Positions 1,924 to 8,252 of a DNA stretch of 37,729 nucleotides are shown here, in pieces (within the stretch, counting starts at the first letter, position 1; each line of letters starts with the position of its first letter). The DNA is from Escherichia coli (GTDB taxonomy: Bacteria > Pseudomonadota > Gammaproteobacteria > Enterobacterales > Enterobacteriaceae), in NCBI RefSeq assembly GCF_003334405.1, contig NZ_QOWM01000026.1; one strand, given 5' to 3'. A program made the translations under genes and the position numbers. Under the pieces are notes generated by a model. That model had not been told where the DNA came from. It did no database searches and saw nothing but the letters and a program-made list of their open reading frames with translations.

Positions 1924-3243
1924 ATGGATATCTGCTCCCGAAACAAGAAATTAACGATTAGAAGACCAGCGATACTAGTTGCACTGGCACTTTTACTGTG
2001 TAGTTGTAAAAGCACGCCTCCAGAGTCCATGGTGACACCACCAGCAGGTTCAAAGCCACCAGCCACGACGCAACAATCGTCACAACCGATGCGTGGCATC
2101 TGGCTGGCCACGGTTTCTCGGCTCGACTGGCCACCGGTTTCCTCGGTTAACATTAGTAACCCCACCAGCCGGGCCCGTGTACAACAACAGGCGATGATCG
2201 ACAAACTGGATCATCTGCAACGTCTCGGCATAAACACGGTCTTTTTCCAGGTCAAGCCGGACGGTACCGCCCTGTGGCCATCGAAAATTTTGCCGTGGTC
2301 CGATCTTATGACCGGTAAGATTGGTGAAAATCCGGGTTACGATCCGCTGCAATTTATGCTCGACGAAGCCCACAAGCGTGGGATGAAAGTACACGCCTGG
2401 TTTAACCCCTATCGCGTATCGGTTAATACGAAGCCCAGTACTATCAGGGAACTGAATAGCACTCTGTCTCAACAACCGGCGAGCGTCTATGTGCAACACC
2501 GCGACTGGATCAGAACGTCTGGCGATCGCTTTGTCCTCGACCCGGGCATCCCTGAGGTTCAGGACTGGATCACATCAATAGTCGCAGAAGTGGTTTCCCG
2601 CTATCCCGTAGATGGCGTGCAGTTTGACGACTATTTCTATACGGAGTCACCGGGTTCACGGCTAAATGATAACGAAACGTACCGTAAATACGGAGGCGCA
2701 TTTGCGTCAAAAGCAGACTGGCGGCGCAACAATACTCAGCAGTTAATTGCAAAGGTATCGCACACCATTAAAAGCATTAAGCCGGGAGTCGAATTTGGTG
2801 TTAGCCCGGCAGGCGTGTGGCGTAACCGATCACACGATCCGCTCGGTTCCGATACCCGAGGCGCGGCAGCCTATGACGAATCCTACGCTGACACCCGTCG
2901 ATGGGTGGAACAAGGATTGCTGGATTACATTGCTCCCCAAATTTACTGGCCGTTCTCACGGAGTGCCGCGCGTTATGACGTGTTGGCAAAATGGTGGGCG
3001 GATGTCGTTAAACCGACCAGGACCCGCCTGTATATCGGTATCGCCTTCTATAAAGTGGGTGAACCTTCAAAGATAGAGCCAGACTGGATGATTAACGGCG
3101 GCGTACCGGAACTGAAAAAGCAGCTCGATCTTAACGATGCTGTGCCCGAAATTAGCGGCACCATCTTGTTCCGTGAGGACTATCTGAATAAACCGCAGAC
3201 TCAACAAGCGGTCAGCTATCTGCAAAGTCGCTGGGGCAGTTAA
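1924..3243 (+). CDS. yddW: lipoprotein YddW, glycoside-hydrolase-like fold, function unknown
   Basis: ORF track 439 aa; N-terminus has signal peptide ending in lipobox LLLCSC; recognised as YddW. Confidence 0.9.
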   Translation: MDICSRNKKLTIRRPAILVALALLLCSCKSTPPESMVTPPAGSKPPATTQQSSQPMRGIWLATVSRLDWPPVSSVNISNPTSRARVQQQAMIDKLDHLQRLGINTVFFQVKPDGTALWPSKILPWSDLMTGKIGENPGYDPLQFMLDEAHKRGMKVHAWFNPYRVSVNTKPSTIRELNSTLSQQPASVYVQHRDWIRTSGDRFVLDPGIPEVQDWITSIVAEVVSRYPVDGVQFDDYFYTESPGSRLNDNETYRKYGGAFASKADWRRNNTQQLIAKVSHTIKSIKPGVEFGVSPAGVWRNRSHDPLGSDTRGAAAYDESYADTRRWVEQGLLDYIAPQIYWPFSRSAARYDVLAKWWADVVKPTRTRLYIGIAFYKVGEPSKIEPDWMINGGVPELKKQLDLNDAVPEISGTILFREDYLNKPQTQQAVSYLQSRWGS

Positions 3244-3606
3244 ACTCCCATTCTTACTTTGTAACAAGCCGGTGCTTTACCCACCGGCTTGTTACCCTCT
3301 TAAACTATCCCACTAATAATCATGCTTACTTAAGTCAAATTAACCACACTTAGTTAAACAGCCATAAATCCCTAATAAAAATGTATGAATATGAAAAACC
3401 ATACGATATTCGCTGTCACCGAAAAATAATTACGATGGGCTATACTCTTCTGAAGAACAGTAGCGTAGATTGAAACTGTCCTAAATCGCTTATTTCTTTT
3501 CAGTATATCTTCATATTTCAGGAGAATATGGTGCAGTTAGTCGATCTCGCACGTTGCGTTTCATTTTGATTCCGTCTGATTTCCCAGCCTTATAAGGGTG
3601 TGAATT

Positions 3607-4989
3607 ATGGAGATGTATTTTAAAAGAATGAAAGATGAGTGGACCGGACTTGTCGAACAGGCAGATCCGCCCATTCGTGCTAAAGCCGCGGAAATTGCCG
3701 TTGCGCATGCTCATTATCTGAGTATCGAGTTTTATCGAATTGTCCGCATCGACCCGCATGCCGAAGAATTCTTGAGTAATGAACAAGTTGAGCGGCAGTT
3801 GAAGAGTGCGATGGAACGCTGGATTATTAACGTGCTTTCTGCCCAGGTTGACGATGTCGAAAGGCTAATACAAATCCAGCATACCGTCGCGGAAGTGCAT
3901 GCCCGCATAGGAATTCCGGTAGAAATTGTCGAGATGGGGTTTCGGGTGCTGAAAAAAATCCTCTATCCGGTGATCTTCTCTTCGGATTATTCCGCCGCAG
4001 AAAAACTTCAGGTCTACCATTTCTCGATTAACAGTATTGATATCGCGATGGAAGTGATGACTCGCGCGTTTACCTTTAGTGACAGTAGTGCCTCAAAGGA
4101 AGATGAAAACTATCGTATCTTCTCGTTACTGGAAAACGCCGAAGAAGAAAAAGAACGGCAAATAGCCTCAATACTTTCATGGGAAATAGATATTATCTAT
4201 AAAATCCTGCTGGATTCTGATTTAGGCAGTAGTTTGCCTTTAAGCCAGGCTGATTTTGGCCTGTGGTTTAACCATAAAGGTCGACATTATTTTAGTGGTA
4301 TTGCCGAAGTAGGCCATATCTCCCGTCTGATTCAGGATTTCGACGGTATTTTCAATCAAACCATGCGTAACACCAGAAATTTGAATAACAGAAGTCTGCG
4401 GGTGAAATTTTTATTACAGATAAGAAATACCGTATCGCAAATTATTACCTTGCTGCGTGAATTGTTTGAAGAAGTATCGCGCCACGAAGTCGGTATGGAT
4501 GTACTGACGAAATTACTTAACCGCCGTTTCCTACCGACTATCTTCAAACGCGAAATTGCCCATGCCAACCGGACCGGTACACCGCTGTCAGTGCTGATTA
4601 TTGACGTTGATAAATTCAAAGAGATCAACGATACGTGGGGCCATAACACTGGTGATGAAATTCTGCGTAAAGTCTCTCAGGCCTTTTATGACAACGTCCG
4701 CAGTAGTGATTATGTTTTCCGCTACGGGGGCGATGAATTTATCATTGTTTTGACTGAAGCTTCTGAAAACGAAACGTTACGTACCGCAGAACGTATTCGC
4801 AGTCGGGTGGAGAAAACCAAACTGAAAGCCGCAAACGGCGAAGATATTGCCCTCTCACTTTCCATCGGTGCCGCCATGTTTAATGGTCATCCTGACTATG
4901 AGCGCCTCATTCAAATAGCCGATGAAGCTCTGTATATCGCCAAAAGACGAGGTAGAAACCGTGTTGAACTCTGGAAAGCCAGTCTTTAG
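3607..4989 (+). CDS. dosC: globin-coupled oxygen-sensing diguanylate cyclase (GGDEF)
   Basis: ORF track 460 aa; C-terminal GGDEF-domain motifs (RYGGDEF) visible in translation; recognised as DosC/YddV. Confidence 0.93.
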   Translation: MEMYFKRMKDEWTGLVEQADPPIRAKAAEIAVAHAHYLSIEFYRIVRIDPHAEEFLSNEQVERQLKSAMERWIINVLSAQVDDVERLIQIQHTVAEVHARIGIPVEIVEMGFRVLKKILYPVIFSSDYSAAEKLQVYHFSINSIDIAMEVMTRAFTFSDSSASKEDENYRIFSLLENAEEEKERQIASILSWEIDIIYKILLDSDLGSSLPLSQADFGLWFNHKGRHYFSGIAEVGHISRLIQDFDGIFNQTMRNTRNLNNRSLRVKFLLQIRNTVSQIITLLRELFEEVSRHEVGMDVLTKLLNRRFLPTIFKREIAHANRTGTPLSVLIIDVDKFKEINDTWGHNTGDEILRKVSQAFYDNVRSSDYVFRYGGDEFIIVLTEASENETLRTAERIRSRVEKTKLKAANGEDIALSLSIGAAMFNGHPDYERLIQIADEALYIAKRRGRNRVELWKASL

Positions 4990-5013
4990 ATGCGCCAGGA
5001 TGCAGAGGTAATC

Positions 5014-7413
5014 ATGAAGCTAACCGATGCGGATAATGCCGCCGATGGCATTTTTTTCCCCGCCCTTGAGCAAAATATGATGGGTGCGGTGTTAATTAAC
5101 GAAAATGATGAAGTGATGTTTTTCAACCCCGCCGCAGAGAAGCTCTGGGGATACAAACGTGAAGAAGTCATTGGCAATAACATTGATATGCTGATTCCGC
5201 GGGATTTGCGTCCTGCGCATCCTGAATACATTCGTCACAACCGTGAAGGCGGTAAAGCGCGTGTTGAGGGGATGAGTCGGGAGCTGCAGCTGGAGAAAAA
5301 AGACGGCAGTAAAATCTGGACCCGTTTTGCGCTATCGAAAGTGAGCGCCGAGGGGAAAGTTTATTACCTGGCGCTGGTACGGGATGCCAGCGTAGAAATG
5401 GCGCAAAAAGAACAGACCCGACAATTGATTATTGCCGTTGACCATCTCGACCGACCGGTGATTGTCCTCGATCCGGAACGCCATATTGTGCAGTGCAATC
5501 GCGCATTTACCGAAATGTTTGGTTACTGCATTAGCGAAGCCAGCGGTATGCAGCCCGATACACTCCTGAACATTCCTGAATTCCCTGCCGATAACCGCAT
5601 TCGTTTACAACAGTTGCTATGGAAAACCGCCCGCGATCAGGACGAATTTCTGCTGTTGACGCGCACCGGTGAAAAAATCTGGATTAAAGCCTCTATCAGC
5701 CCGGTTTATGACGTGCTCGCGCATCTGCAGAACCTGGTAATGACTTTCTCGGATATCACCGAAGAACGGCAGATTCGCCAGCTTGAAGGCAATATTCTCG
5801 CCGCCATGTGCAGCAGCCCGCCATTTCATGAAATGGGGGAAATCATTTGTCGTAACATCGAATCTGTACTCAACGAATCGCATGTTTCGCTGTTCGCACT
5901 GCGCAACGGGATGCCGATACACTGGGCGTCATCTTCCCACGGTGCAGAAATTCAAAATGCGCAAAGCTGGTCAGCGACCATTCGTCAGCGTGATGGCGCG
6001 CCTGCGGGGATCCTGCAAATTAAAACCTCGTCAGGAGCAGAAACCAGCGCCTTTATCGAACGCGTGGCAGATATCAGCCAGCATATGGCCGCGCTGGCGC
6101 TGGAACAGGAAAAAAGCCGTCAGCATATTGAACAACTCATCCAATTTGATCCGATGACCGGTCTGCCAAATCGCAATAACCTGCACAATTACCTCGATGA
6201 CCTGGTCGACAAAGCCGTCTCTCCCGTGGTGTATCTCATCGGTGTTGACCATATTCAGGATGTGATTGATAGCCTTGGCTATGCGTGGGCCGATCAGGCA
6301 TTGCTGGAAGTGGTCAATCGCTTTCGTGAAAAACTCAAACCGGATCAGTATCTCTGTCGTATCGAAGGTACGCAGTTTGTCCTCGTGAGCCTCGAAAACG
6401 ACGTCAGTAACATTACCCAAATCGCCGATGAGCTACGGAATGTGGTCAGCAAGCCGATAATGATTGACGATAAACCCTTCCCGCTTACCTTGAGTATTGG
6501 CATCAGCTACGACCTGGGTAAAAACCGCGATTACTTGCTCTCCACTGCTCACAATGCAATGGATTATATTCGCAAGAATGGCGGTAACGGCTGGCAGTTC
6601 TTCAGCCCGGCGATGAACGAAATGGTAAAAGAGCGTTTGGTTTTAGGCGCAGCGCTGAAAGAAGCGATTAGCAATAACCAACTGAAACTGGTTTACCAGC
6701 CGCAAATCTTCGCAGAAACGGGTGAACTGTACGGCATCGAAGCCCTTGCTCGCTGGCACGATCCCCTGCATGGTCATGTGCCCCCTTCACGGTTTATTCC
6801 TCTCGCAGAAGAGATTGGTGAAATCGAAAATATTGGGCGCTGGGTCATCGCGGAAGCTTGCCGTCAGTTAGCAGAATGGCGTAGCCAGAATATTCATATC
6901 CCGGCGTTATCCGTGAACTTGTCGGCGCTGCACTTTCGCAGTAATCAACTGCCTAATCAGGTGTCTGATGCAATGCACGCCTGGGGTATTGACGGCCACC
7001 AGCTGACGGTAGAAATCACGGAAAGCATGATGATGGAACACGATACCGAAATCTTTAAGCGCATTCAGATCCTGCGTGATATGGGCGTGGGCTTATCGGT
7101 AGATGATTTTGGTACGGGCTTTTCCGGATTATCCCGCTTAGTCAGTCTTCCGGTAACGGAAATCAAAATTGACAAAAGTTTTGTCGATCGTTGTCTGACC
7201 GAAAAACGCATCCTTGCCTTACTTGAAGCCATTACCAGCATTGGGCAAAGCCTCAATTTAACCGTCGTGGCGGAAGGCGTCGAAACCAAAGAGCAATTTG
7301 AGATGCTACGCAAGATCCACTGTCGCGTTATTCAGGGATATTTCTTTTCCCGCCCCCTACCCGCCGAAGAAATTCCAGGCTGGATGAGCAGCGTGTTACC
7401 GCTGAAAATCTGA
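5014..7413 (+). CDS. dosP: heme-PAS oxygen-sensing c-di-GMP phosphodiesterase (PAS-PAS-GGDEF-EAL)
   Basis: ORF track 807 aa from ATG 4990; I place the start at ATG 5014 (MKLTDADNAADG..., 799 aa) because GAGG lies 5 nt upstream; EAL-domain motifs in C-terminal half. Confidence 0.9.
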   Translation: MKLTDADNAADGIFFPALEQNMMGAVLINENDEVMFFNPAAEKLWGYKREEVIGNNIDMLIPRDLRPAHPEYIRHNREGGKARVEGMSRELQLEKKDGSKIWTRFALSKVSAEGKVYYLALVRDASVEMAQKEQTRQLIIAVDHLDRPVIVLDPERHIVQCNRAFTEMFGYCISEASGMQPDTLLNIPEFPADNRIRLQQLLWKTARDQDEFLLLTRTGEKIWIKASISPVYDVLAHLQNLVMTFSDITEERQIRQLEGNILAAMCSSPPFHEMGEIICRNIESVLNESHVSLFALRNGMPIHWASSSHGAEIQNAQSWSATIRQRDGAPAGILQIKTSSGAETSAFIERVADISQHMAALALEQEKSRQHIEQLIQFDPMTGLPNRNNLHNYLDDLVDKAVSPVVYLIGVDHIQDVIDSLGYAWADQALLEVVNRFREKLKPDQYLCRIEGTQFVLVSLENDVSNITQIADELRNVVSKPIMIDDKPFPLTLSIGISYDLGKNRDYLLSTAHNAMDYIRKNGGNGWQFFSPAMNEMVKERLVLGAALKEAISNNQLKLVYQPQIFAETGELYGIEALARWHDPLHGHVPPSRFIPLAEEIGEIENIGRWVIAEACRQLAEWRSQNIHIPALSVNLSALHFRSNQLPNQVSDAMHAWGIDGHQLTVEITESMMMEHDTEIFKRIQILRDMGVGLSVDDFGTGFSGLSRLVSLPVTEIKIDKSFVDRCLTEKRILALLEAITSIGQSLNLTVVAEGVETKEQFEMLRKIHCRVIQGYFFSRPLPAEEIPGWMSSVLPLKI

Positions 7414-7425
7414 CAAATTCCTCTC

Positions 7426-7449
7426 GCCCGCACTCGCGGGTTTTCATTT
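7426..7449 (+). terminator. candidate terminator after dosP
   Basis: Short GC stem cccgc / gcggg (loop actc) followed by ttttcattt; 13 nt after dosP stop. Confidence 0.4.
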
Positions 7450-7522
7450 AACGTGACACTGTCACTTAAATACTGTGATTTCAGCTACGATTCCGGGAGA
7501 TTCCTTCCTTAACTTCCCCTCT

Positions 7523-7549
7523 TGCACCAAAACTGCACTACGCTGCACA
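7523..7549 (+). promoter_or_regulatory. three TGCAC repeats, candidate NtrC-type enhancer sites for ddp operon
   Basis: TGCACC (7523), TGCACT (7534), TGCACA (7544) about 65-90 bp upstream of the sigma54-like element; resembles NtrC half-sites (TGCACC...GGTGCA). Confidence 0.3.
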
Positions 7550-7610
7550 AATGTTGATCAAAAGTTAAAAAATATAACTTTAAGCCAGCATTCTGGCGCT
7601 TATCCCGGCA

Positions 7611-7626
7611 TGGCATGAGATCTGCA
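7611..7626 (+). promoter_or_regulatory. sigma54 (-24/-12) type promoter upstream of ddpX
   Basis: TGGCATgagatcTGCA: GG and GC dinucleotides at the exact consensus spacing (TGGCACG-N4-TTGC); about 45 bp upstream of ddpX ATG. Confidence 0.5.
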
Positions 7627-7670
7627 TAAGCGGAAAGCGCAGCAATTTTTGTCTTATACAGGAACCGTTT

Positions 7671-8252
7671 ATGTCGGATACCACCGAACTGGTTGATTTA
7701 GCCGTAATCTTCCCTGATCTGGAGATCGAATTGAAATACGCCTGCGCTGATAACATCACAGGTAAAGCTATTTATCAGCAAGCGCGTTGTCTGTTACACA
7801 AGGATGCGATTACCGCGCTGGCGAAAAGTATCAGCATCGCCCAGCTGTCAGGGTTACAACTGGTGATTTACGATGCGTATCGCCCACAACAAGCACAGGC
7901 GATGTTGTGGCAAGCCTGCCCAGACCCGCAATATGTTGTTGATGTGACGGTCGGTTCTAATCACAGCCGTGGCACGGCGATCGACCTGACGCTTCGTGAT
8001 GAGCACGGGAACATCCTCGATATGGGCGCAGGGTTCGATGAAATGCACGAGCGCTCCCATGCCTATCACCCTTCCGTCCCGCCCGCCGCTCAGCGCAATC
8101 GGCTGTTGCTGAATGCGATAATGACTGGTGGCGGTTTTGTCGGTATCTCCAGCGAATGGTGGCACTTCGAATTACCCCAGGCAGCGAGTTACCCTCTGCT
8201 CGCTGATCAATTCTCTTGTTTTATATCCCCTGGCACACAGCACGTCAGTTAA
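7671..8252 (+). CDS. ddpX: D-Ala-D-Ala dipeptidase (VanX homologue)
   Basis: ORF track 193 aa; recognised as DdpX; first gene of ddp operon. Confidence 0.93.
   Translation: MSDTTELVDLAVIFPDLEIELKYACADNITGKAIYQQARCLLHKDAITALAKSISIAQLSGLQLVIYDAYRPQQAQAMLWQACPDPQYVVDVTVGSNHSRGTAIDLTLRDEHGNILDMGAGFDEMHERSHAYHPSVPPAAQRNRLLLNAIMTGGGFVGISSEWWHFELPQAASYPLLADQFSCFISPGTQHVS

What the first reader, a model, noticed from the sequence alone, without database searches (positions are those of the whole stretch)
4987..5016. dosC-dosP junction: two possible dosP starts
dosC ends TAG at 4987-4989 and an in-frame ATG follows immediately at 4990. A second ATG at 5014 has GAGG 5 nt upstream and gives the N-terminus MKLTDADNAADG. 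The pair encodes a heme-globin diguanylate cyclase and a heme-PAS phosphodiesterase, so the start choice and any translational coupling bear on the stoichiometry of an opposing c-di-GMP enzyme pair.
Basis: partly seen in the sequence, partly recalled or inferred. Interest (0 to 1): 0.3.

Follow-up and report, generated by a model that had tools for sequence, protein, structure and literature searches.

The report
Two candidate dosP start codons
The E. coli oxygen-sensor gene dosP has two in-frame ATGs just after dosC, but the evidence points to the second one (position 5014) as the real start, and this ambiguity is already known and settled in current annotation, so the finding is ordinary.

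Summary
dosC ends with TAG at 4987-4989, an in-frame ATG follows at 4990, and a second in-frame ATG lies at 5014 with GAGG five bases upstream.

The locus is the E. coli dosC-dosP operon. The ambiguity is already documented. Biochemical and structural work uses an 807-residue DosP that starts MRQDAEVI. UniProt, the K-12 reference record and RefSeq use the 799-residue form that starts MKLTD.

My evidence favours 5014:
- **Conservation:** ATG5014 and its Shine-Dalgarno core are invariant in 12 lineages (Escherichia, Citrobacter and three unnamed enterobacterial lineages).
- **ATG4990 is not conserved:** it occurs only in E. coli and three close relatives. It is ATT or ATA in two other lineages and ATA in at least 53 complete E. 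coli genomes with intact dosP. Elsewhere, spacer-length changes or in-frame stops rule out the extension.
- **Shine-Dalgarno pairing:** -7.2 kcal/mol for 5014 against -3.3 for 4990.
- **Published in vitro profiling:** retapamulin profiling found an initiation peak at the 5014 site in 5 of 5 replicates and reported no extra dosP site.

About a third of neighbouring genes also have an upstream in-frame start candidate. Minor reinitiation at 4990 and translational coupling remain untested in vivo.

The parts
3607..4989 (+). dosC (dgcO, yddV) coding sequence, 460 aa, globin-coupled diguanylate cyclase
   Evidence: ORF list, translation, RefSeq annotation at the same coordinates in a near-identical strain
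4987..4989 (+). dosC stop codon TAG
   Evidence: Sequence. The stop codon type is not conserved: TAA or TGA in other lineages
4990..4992 (+). Upstream in-frame ATG, the historical start of the 807-aa 'Ec DOS' form. Most likely a lineage-specific codon inside the intercistronic spacer
   Evidence: Sequence. Weak SD pairing of -3.3 kcal/mol. Replaced by ATT (L004), ATA (L010, L002) or absent in Citrobacter and others. The ATA variant is identical in 53 complete E. coli genomes
4990..5013 (+). 24-nt dosC-dosP intercistronic spacer. It would encode MRQDAEVI if translated from 4990
   Evidence: Spacer length is 24, 26 or 32 nt in orthologous operons. The first ~12 nt are unalignable between Escherichia and Citrobacter, while GCAGAGGTAA is conserved
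5005..5009 (+). Shine-Dalgarno sequence GAGGT for dosP
   Evidence: Duplex with the 16S rRNA 3' end is -7.2 kcal/mol, close to the median (-7.4) of 28 neighbouring annotated starts. The AGGT core is invariant in 12 lineages
5014..5016 (+). dosP start codon ATG, the annotated start and the best-supported one
   Evidence: Invariant in 12 lineages. RefSeq and K-12 annotation. INRI-seq initiation peak at this site in 5/5 replicates
5014..7413 (+). dosP (pdeO, yddU, dos) coding sequence, 799 aa, heme-PAS c-di-GMP phosphodiesterase
   Evidence: ORF, RefSeq annotation, PDB matches named 'Oxygen sensor protein DosP'

Best explanation
dosP is translated from ATG5014. A 30S subunit, or a ribosome that has just finished dosC, is positioned by the Shine-Dalgarno sequence GAGGU (5005-5009) four to five bases upstream. 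This yields the 799-residue protein that begins MKLTD. The 24 bases between the dosC stop and this ATG are an ordinary intercistronic spacer. ATG4990 is a codon that happens to sit in that spacer, in frame and with no stop after it, in E. coli and its nearest relatives. It has no Shine-Dalgarno sequence of its own and is not needed for DosP. The 807-residue 'Ec DOS' of the biochemical and structural literature is a legacy of the longest-ORF annotation. Shown here: conservation, energetics, annotation status, and in vitro initiation at 5014. Inferred: that 5014 is also the dominant start in vivo, and that any coupling to dosC translation acts through this site.
For: (1) In an alignment of 12 dosC-dosP junctions, ATG5014 and the AGGT of the SD are invariant. 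The lineages are E. coli, four other Escherichia lineages, four Citrobacter species and three unnamed enterobacterial lineages at 83%, 72% and 64% protein identity. ATG4990 is present in only 4 of them. (2) The 8-codon extension is impossible outside that small clade. The position reads ATT in the E69 lineage, whose dosC and dosP ORFs are intact, and ATA in the 83% lineage. Citrobacter has a 26-nt spacer, which breaks the frame. The 72% and 64% lineages have an in-frame TGA. (3) Within E. coli, strain JA0266 reads TAG ATA CGC and still has an annotated intact 799-aa dosP, and 53 complete genomes are identical to this variant over 89 nt. (4) SD-antiSD duplex energy is -7.2 kcal/mol for 5014 against -3.3 for 4990. 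Only 3 of 28 annotated starts nearby are weaker than -3.3. (5) INRI-seq (PMC9825163, Table S2) used a synthetic dosP transcript lacking dosC in a cell-free system with retapamulin. It gave peaks of 27-46 at the annotated start (K-12 position 1565733, equivalent to 5014) in 5/5 replicates. Table S3 of non-annotated sites, held complete, has no dosP entry. Per unit of transcript, the dosP peak (35/146.5) is about 1.8 times that of dosC (89/669), so the site is competent on its own. (6) About 1090 of 5354 genomes have lost the dosC start through deletions of window 3562-4247 and 4294-4824, yet keep the spacer and dosP. (7) K-12 (b1489, NP_416006.4) and PGAP records all use 5014. Wu et al. 2024 call the 807 numbering 'historical'.
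Against: There is no in vivo initiation-site or N-terminal peptide evidence for DosP. The Meydan et al. Ribo-RET values listed in the INRI-seq table are 0 for both dosC and dosP, because the operon is RpoS-dependent and silent in log phase. ATG4990 is retained in the large majority of E. coli genomes: 3457 of 5316 are identical over 4958-5046, and most sampled variants change other positions. In one sampled strain (SWHEFF_68) the two changes in the spacer, CGC>CGT and ATC>ATT, are both synonymous in the 4990 frame. This is too few events to mean much, but it points the other way. A stop codon directly abutting an AUG is a favourable geometry for reinitiation by a terminating ribosome (established knowledge, not tested here). 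In the INRI-seq construct the upstream ATG lies only 9 nt from the 5' end, so that experiment is not a fair test of 4990.
Confidence: 0.85

Rival explanations
1. Dual proteoforms. Most DosP starts at 5014, but ribosomes that have just terminated on the dosC UAG slide three bases and reinitiate at the abutting AUG4990. E. coli would then make a minor 807-residue form whose amount reports how much DosP synthesis is coupled to DosC synthesis.
For: UAG-AUG adjacency and an open frame to 5014. Both genes are in one operon. ATG4990 is kept in most E. coli genomes. The 807-aa protein folds and is an active, O2-regulated enzyme in vitro, so it would not be harmful.
Against: There is no SD ahead of 4990 (-3.3 kcal/mol). 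The codon is lost in several lineages and in at least 53 E. coli genomes without loss of dosP. The extension changes Gln to Pro at codon 3 between E. coli and sister species. PDB chains from 1S66, 9CMF and 9CLO begin at residues 16-20 of the 807-residue numbering, which suggests the extension adds to a tail outside the PAS fold (inference). No experimental detection was found: the only paper in the library containing MRQDAEVI is the cryo-EM paper, which describes a construct.
Confidence: 0.2
2. ATG4990 is the true and main start, and the 807-residue protein used in the biochemical literature is the native one.
For: It is the longest ORF. The 807-aa form is deposited on 595 contigs in public collections and is used in PDB entries 1V9Y, 9BGV and 9CDR.
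Against: All the comparative, energetic and in vitro evidence listed for the best explanation applies. Current curated and automated annotations have abandoned this start. The authors who use it call it historical numbering.
Confidence: 0.03
3. The in-frame, stop-free spacer exists to allow UAG read-through. This would give a DosC-DosP fusion (460 + 1 + 807 = 1268 residues) that fixes a 1:1 cyclase:phosphodiesterase unit.
For: dosC, the spacer and dosP share one frame with no further stop. UAG is the leakiest E. coli stop codon (established knowledge). Natural in-frame deletion fusions of the two genes exist. The two proteins form a complex anyway.
Against: The shared frame is not conserved: spacers of 26 and 32 nt occur, and two lineages have in-frame TGA. 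The stop codon varies among TAG, TAA and TGA. No read-through signal or structure follows the stop.
Confidence: 0.03

Closest known systems
The documented DosP start-site discrepancy: UniProt P76129 / K-12 b1489 (799 aa) versus 'Ec DOS residues 1-807' numbering (His77, Met95, Arg97)
   Same: This is exactly the feature in the finding. It is the same eight residues, MRQDAEVI, noted by Wu et al. 2024, used in PDB 1V9Y, 9BGV and 9CDR, and in the review statement 'amino acids 1-807'.
   Different: Nothing differs. What I add is the comparative and population evidence on which start is conserved.
Translational coupling by termination-reinitiation at abutting or overlapping cistrons (e.g. trpB-trpA UGAUG; the Adhin and van Duin scanning model) - recalled from established knowledge
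   Same: The genes are co-directional in one operon. A stop codon directly abuts a candidate AUG (UAG-AUG), and a second AUG lies 24 nt away, within the range over which post-termination ribosomes can reinitiate.
   Different: In the classic cases the reinitiation codon is the conserved start and usually has an SD inside the upstream gene. Here the abutting AUG has no SD and is not conserved. The conserved start has its own SD and initiates without dosC in vitro. Dependence on dosC translation has not been tested.
Genes with two functional in-frame starts giving long and short proteoforms (e.g. infB IF2-alpha/beta, clpB, cheA) - recalled from established knowledge
   Same: There are two in-frame AUGs in one ORF, which could give proteins differing only at the N-terminus.
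   Different: In those genes both starts are conserved, each has initiation signals, and the forms differ by a functional segment. Here the forms would differ by 8 residues at a tail outside the PAS fold, and the upstream start is neither conserved nor SD-led.

Membership tests
Canonical SD-led bacterial initiation site (claim for ATG5014) | AUG/GUG/UUG preceded at about 4-9 nt by a sequence complementary to the 16S rRNA 3' end | tested here: met
   GAGGU at 5005-5009, 4 nt before the AUG. Duplex energy -7.2 kcal/mol, close to the median (-7.4) of 28 neighbouring annotated starts
Canonical SD-led bacterial initiation site (claim for ATG5014) | Start codon and SD conserved in orthologs | tested here: met
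   ATG and AGGT are invariant in 12 lineages down to 64% protein identity
Canonical SD-led bacterial initiation site (claim for ATG5014) | Ribosomes arrested at the site by an initiation-specific inhibitor | tested here: met
   From the literature, in vitro only: INRI-seq peaks of 27-46 in 5/5 replicates at K-12 1565733. In vivo Ribo-RET gives 0 because the operon is not expressed in log phase
Canonical SD-led bacterial initiation site (claim for ATG4990) | SD at suitable spacing | tested here: not met
   Best pairing upstream of 4990 is -3.3 kcal/mol (GGAA, about 12 nt away). Only 3 of 28 annotated starts nearby are weaker
Canonical SD-led bacterial initiation site (claim for ATG4990) | Start codon conserved in orthologs | tested here: not met
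   Present in 4 of 12 lineages. It is ATT, ATA or absent elsewhere, and ATA in at least 53 E. coli genomes
Translationally coupled gene pair (termination-reinitiation) | Same operon, same strand, stop-to-start distance of a few tens of nt or less | tested here: met
   0 nt to ATG4990 and 24 nt to ATG5014. Operon status comes from the literature
Translationally coupled gene pair (termination-reinitiation) | Downstream initiation region masked by structure that upstream translation opens | tested here: not met
   Fold of 4940-5080 has z = 0.29 against shuffles. The consensus fold of 12 junctions is -5.4 kcal/mol with a covariation term of -0.22. The site initiates in vitro without dosC
Translationally coupled gene pair (termination-reinitiation) | Downstream translation falls when upstream translation is stopped prematurely | not testable with these tools
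   Needs dosC nonsense mutants with DosP quantification. Natural dosC-deleted strains keep dosP, but their DosP levels are unknown
Dual-start N-terminal proteoforms | Both N-termini detected in cells | not testable with these tools
   No dosP entry in the N-terminomics supplements searched. No paper in the library carries the peptide except as a construct
Dual-start N-terminal proteoforms | Coding constraint on the segment between the starts | tested here: not met
   The segment has indels that are not multiples of 3, in-frame stops and unalignable sequence outside Escherichia. It shows a Gln/Pro difference within Escherichia. Variation within E. coli is too scarce to test

The most novel reading that the evidence does not exclude
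In E. coli and its closest relatives only, ribosomes terminating at the dosC UAG reinitiate at the abutting AUG4990. Free 30S subunits use the SD-led AUG5014. The cell would then make two DosP proteoforms (807 and 799 residues), and their ratio would record how much phosphodiesterase synthesis was physically coupled to cyclase synthesis, and perhaps to co-translational DosC-DosP assembly.
Probability: 0.08. Interest if true: 0.35.

Novelty: already known. Interest (0 to 1): 0.1.

Why it matters
The practical consequence is residue numbering. The heme ligands are called His77 and Met95 in the literature, but they are His69 and Met87 in the annotated 799-residue protein. Recombinant 'full-length' DosP also carries eight residues that cells most likely do not make. 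For c-di-GMP biology, the result suggests that the DosC:DosP ratio is not set by start-codon choice at this junction. The dosP initiation region is self-sufficient. Natural E. coli lineages alter the pair in much cruder ways, by deleting dosC or by making in-frame dosC::dosP fusions.

Tried and rejected
- **In vivo initiation data:** I looked for data that would settle the matter directly. The TRAINSPOTTER N-terminomics supplements have no dosP entry. The Ribo-RET preprint has no supplements held. The small-protein profiling preprint mentions only yddY. The Meydan values reproduced in the INRI-seq table are zero.
- **RNA element at the junction:** I tested for an element that could mediate coupling or differential expression. 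There is no Rfam match in 3000-8000 apart from a chance-level hit elsewhere. The fold is not unusually stable and there is no conserved structure.
- **Terminator-like hairpin:** I considered the hairpin plus T7 at 5035-5059 as an attenuator. The number of such motifs in the region (7) is within the shuffle expectation (5.1 +/- 2.7), and the motif is not conserved in Citrobacter, so I did not pursue it.
- **RNase E processing:** I tried to find literature on RNase E processing of the dosCP transcript, which I recalled from memory, but could not retrieve a source. I make no claim about it.
- **Codon-level selection test:** Variation within E. coli in the 24-nt spacer is too sparse for this.
- **E. 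albertii:** The locus L008 does not contain a usable junction.
Full report
**Observation.** The window around 4987-5016 reads ...AGT CTT TAG ATG CGC CAG GAT GCA GAG GTA ATC ATG AAG CTA ACC.... TAG at 4987-4989 closes a 460-codon ORF (3607-4989). ATG at 4990 opens an 807-codon ORF (4990-7413). ATG at 5014 is in the same frame, with GAGG at 5005-5008 five bases upstream. Translation gives MRQDAEVI followed by MKLTDADNAADG. Every statement in the finding is correct. dosC and dosP also share one reading frame. An out-of-frame ATG at 5000 opens a three-codon mini-ORF.

**Identity.** A 601-base query across the junction matches 5354 of 5426 complete E. coli genomes at 95% identity or more, annotated as diguanylate cyclase DosC and oxygen-sensing c-di-GMP phosphodiesterase DosP. 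Neighbours are gadC, digH, ddpX and ddpA. Orthologs carry Protoglobin/DosC_2nd/GGDEF domains and PAS/GGDEF/EAL domains respectively.

**The ambiguity is already known.** RefSeq/PGAP places the dosP start 25 bases after the last base of dosC, which is window 5014 and gives 799 aa. This held in every record I opened. The curated K-12 MG1655 record does the same (b1489, NP_416006.4, 2400 nt). The biochemical and structural literature uses the longer form:
- PDB chains 1V9Y, 9BGV and 9CDR begin MRQDAEVIMKLTD.
- Wu et al. [quoted passage not shown]

Both sequences exist in public protein collections. The 807-aa form is on 595 contigs and the 799-aa form on at least 1000.

**Is it more than chance?** No. 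In the RefSeq annotation of the same ~38-kb stretch of a near-identical strain, 10 of 28 intact genes have an in-frame ATG/GTG/TTG between the annotated start and the first upstream stop. Six of these are ATG and five lie within 30 nt. An alternative upstream start is therefore common.

**Which start is real: comparative evidence.** I collected dosC-dosP junctions from four other Escherichia lineages and Citrobacter amalonaticus. I added C. rodentium, C. sedlakii and C. farmeri, plus three unnamed lineages whose DosP is 83%, 72% and 64% identical. In the 12-sequence alignment:
- The ATG equivalent to 5014 and the AGGT of the Shine-Dalgarno sequence are invariant, and GCAGAGGTAA is nearly so.
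- ATG4990 is present only in E. coli and three close Escherichia lineages.
- It reads ATT in the E69 lineage, where dosC (460 aa) and dosP (801 aa from the 5014-equivalent ATG) are intact.
- It reads ATA in the 83% lineage.
- The four Citrobacter species have a 26-nt spacer, so nothing upstream can be in frame.
- The 72% lineage has a 24-nt spacer with an in-frame TGA.
- The 64% lineage has a 32-nt spacer with an in-frame TGA.
- The first dozen bases after the dosC stop are unalignable between Escherichia and Citrobacter, as expected for non-coding spacer.
- Within Escherichia, codon 3 of the putative extension is CAG (Gln) in E. coli and CCG (Pro) in the sister lineages.

**Which start is real: E. 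coli population.**
- Of 5316 genomes with the junction, 3457 are identical to the window over 4958-5046. Most sampled variants change dosC or dosP codons rather than the spacer.
- Strain JA0266 reads TAG ATA CGC, so ATG4990 is lost, yet it has an annotated intact 799-aa DosP. Fifty-three complete genomes are identical to this allele over 89 bases.
- One sampled strain has two spacer changes that would be synonymous in the 4990 frame. That is too few events to weigh.

**Which start is real: signals.** The best pairing between the 16S rRNA 3' end and the 15 bases ahead of each ATG is -7.2 kcal/mol for 5014 and -3.3 for 4990. The median for 28 annotated starts nearby is -7.4, and only three are weaker than -3.3. 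Local unfolding costs are similar for the two sites.

**Which start is real: experiment from the literature.**
- INRI-seq translated a synthetic pool of E. coli 5' regions in a cell-free system with retapamulin. The dosP oligo runs from CTTTAG ATG CGC... through the first ~45 codons and contains no dosC.
- Table S2 lists peaks of 45.7, 36.7, 28.7, 37.0 and 27.2 at the annotated start 1565733 (equivalent to 5014), scored as identified. dosC gives 69-106.
- Table S3, the list of non-annotated sites, is held complete and has no dosP entry.
- Relative to transcript abundance (146.5 against 669 CPM), the dosP site captures about 1.8 times as many initiating ribosomes as the dosC site, so it is self-sufficient.
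- There are two caveats. In that oligo the upstream ATG is only 9 nt from the 5' end. The in vivo Ribo-RET values are zero for both genes, because the operon is RpoS-dependent and expressed in stationary phase.

**Coupling and stoichiometry.**
- The junction RNA has no unusual stability (z = 0.29), no conserved structure (consensus -5.4 kcal/mol, covariation -0.22) and no Rfam family. There is no sign of an SD-masking structure that dosC translation would need to open.
- Roughly 1090 of 5354 genomes match only the last part of the junction query. In the example I dissected, window 3562-4247 and 4294-4824 are deleted. This removes the dosC start but keeps the last 165 nt of dosC, the spacer and dosP. 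dosP in those strains cannot depend on full dosC translation.
- That DosC is frequently absent is already reported (PMC5635171).
- A 24-nt gap is still short enough for terminating ribosomes to reinitiate at 5014, and UAG-AUG adjacency would allow some reinitiation at 4990. Both are plausible from established knowledge, and neither is tested.

**Conclusion.**
- The most likely mechanism is ordinary SD-directed initiation at ATG5014 (confidence 0.85).
- ATG4990 is a lineage-specific, SD-less codon in the spacer. The 807-residue protein is an annotation legacy.
- A minor 807-residue proteoform made by reinitiation is possible (about 0.2) but would be an E. coli-specific by-product.
- The feature is already known and resolved in current annotation, so interest is low.

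**Side observations.**
- E. coli carries several natural in-frame dosC::dosP deletion fusions. The commonest is 923 aa and results from deletion of window 4915-5949. It is present in 25 complete genomes and on many assembled contigs, and RefSeq annotates it simply as DosC.
- Other items are listed separately.

Noticed in passing
window 3562-4824 (deleted in other strains); example locus L002 2955-3189: About 1090 of 5354 complete E. coli genomes match only the last part of the junction query. In the example dissected, two deletions (window 3562-4247 and 4294-4824) remove the dosC start and most of the gene. A 46-nt fragment, the last 165 nt of dosC, the spacer and an intact dosP remain. The promoter region and most of yddY are kept. 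Frequent absence of DosC is already noted in the literature (PMC5635171).
   Followed up: partly
window 4915-5949 (deleted in other strains); locus L027 2001-4772: A 923-aa in-frame DosC::DosP fusion (P0104 and many sister clusters) arises from a 1035-nt deletion. It joins DosC residues 1-436 to DosP residues 313-799, giving globin + GGDEF (lacking its last 24 residues) + degenerate GGDEF + EAL, with no heme-PAS domain. It is found in 25 of 5426 complete genomes and on many assembled contigs. RefSeq labels it 'diguanylate cyclase DosC'. In L027 an IS1 sits just upstream.
   Followed up: partly
proteins P0008 (1015 aa, 31 contigs) and P0005 (1054 aa, 1 contig): There are two further natural in-frame fusions. 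One joins DosC 1-237 to DosP from MMGAVLINEND (residue 22). The other joins DosC 1-247 directly to MRQDAEVIMKLTD, so its deletion ends exactly at ATG4990.
   Followed up: no
window 3607-7413: dosC, the 24-nt spacer and dosP share one reading frame with only the single TAG between them. Amber suppression (supE laboratory strains) or read-through would give a 1268-residue DosC-DosP fusion. The shared frame is not conserved in Citrobacter, where the spacer is 26 nt.
   Followed up: partly
window 5035-5059: A terminator-like hairpin, AATGCC-GCCGAT-GGCATT followed by seven T, lies inside dosP codons 8-15 (-11.3 kcal/mol with an outer stem). The count of such motifs in the region is within shuffle expectation, and the motif is not conserved in Citrobacter. 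The T-run comes from the conserved Ile-Phe-Phe codons.
   Followed up: partly
window 5000-5011: An out-of-frame mini-ORF, ATG CAG AGG TAA, overlaps the dosP Shine-Dalgarno sequence and ends 2 nt before ATG5014. It has no SD of its own (+0.4 kcal/mol). Its ATG is missing in C. amalonaticus and C. sedlakii.
   Followed up: partly
window 3528-3569: The 13-codon small ORF yddY ([13 protein letters not shown]), annotated in K-12 as b4746, sits 37 nt upstream of dosC behind a strong AGGAG. A translated leader peptide precedes the operon.
   Followed up: no
locus L023 (strain PEC422) 1260-2064: A deletion fuses truncated gadC to the sequence ...TCTTTAG ATG, removing digH and dosC entirely. The spacer and dosP are kept.
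   Followed up: no
proteins P0001 (971 aa) and P0004 (857 aa): These DosP variants carry internal tandem duplications: a triplicated segment AETSAFIERV...GYAWA in P0001 and a duplicated segment around IRKNGGNGWQFF in P0004. Each is on a single contig, so they may be assembly artefacts.
   Followed up: no
locus L007 3160-3200 (Citrobacter amalonaticus AUH_CA_2023_1): The species-representative genome has a frameshift near dosP codon 55. Other C. amalonaticus records encode an intact 801-aa protein (P0050, P0060), so this is probably a long-read assembly error.
   Followed up: no
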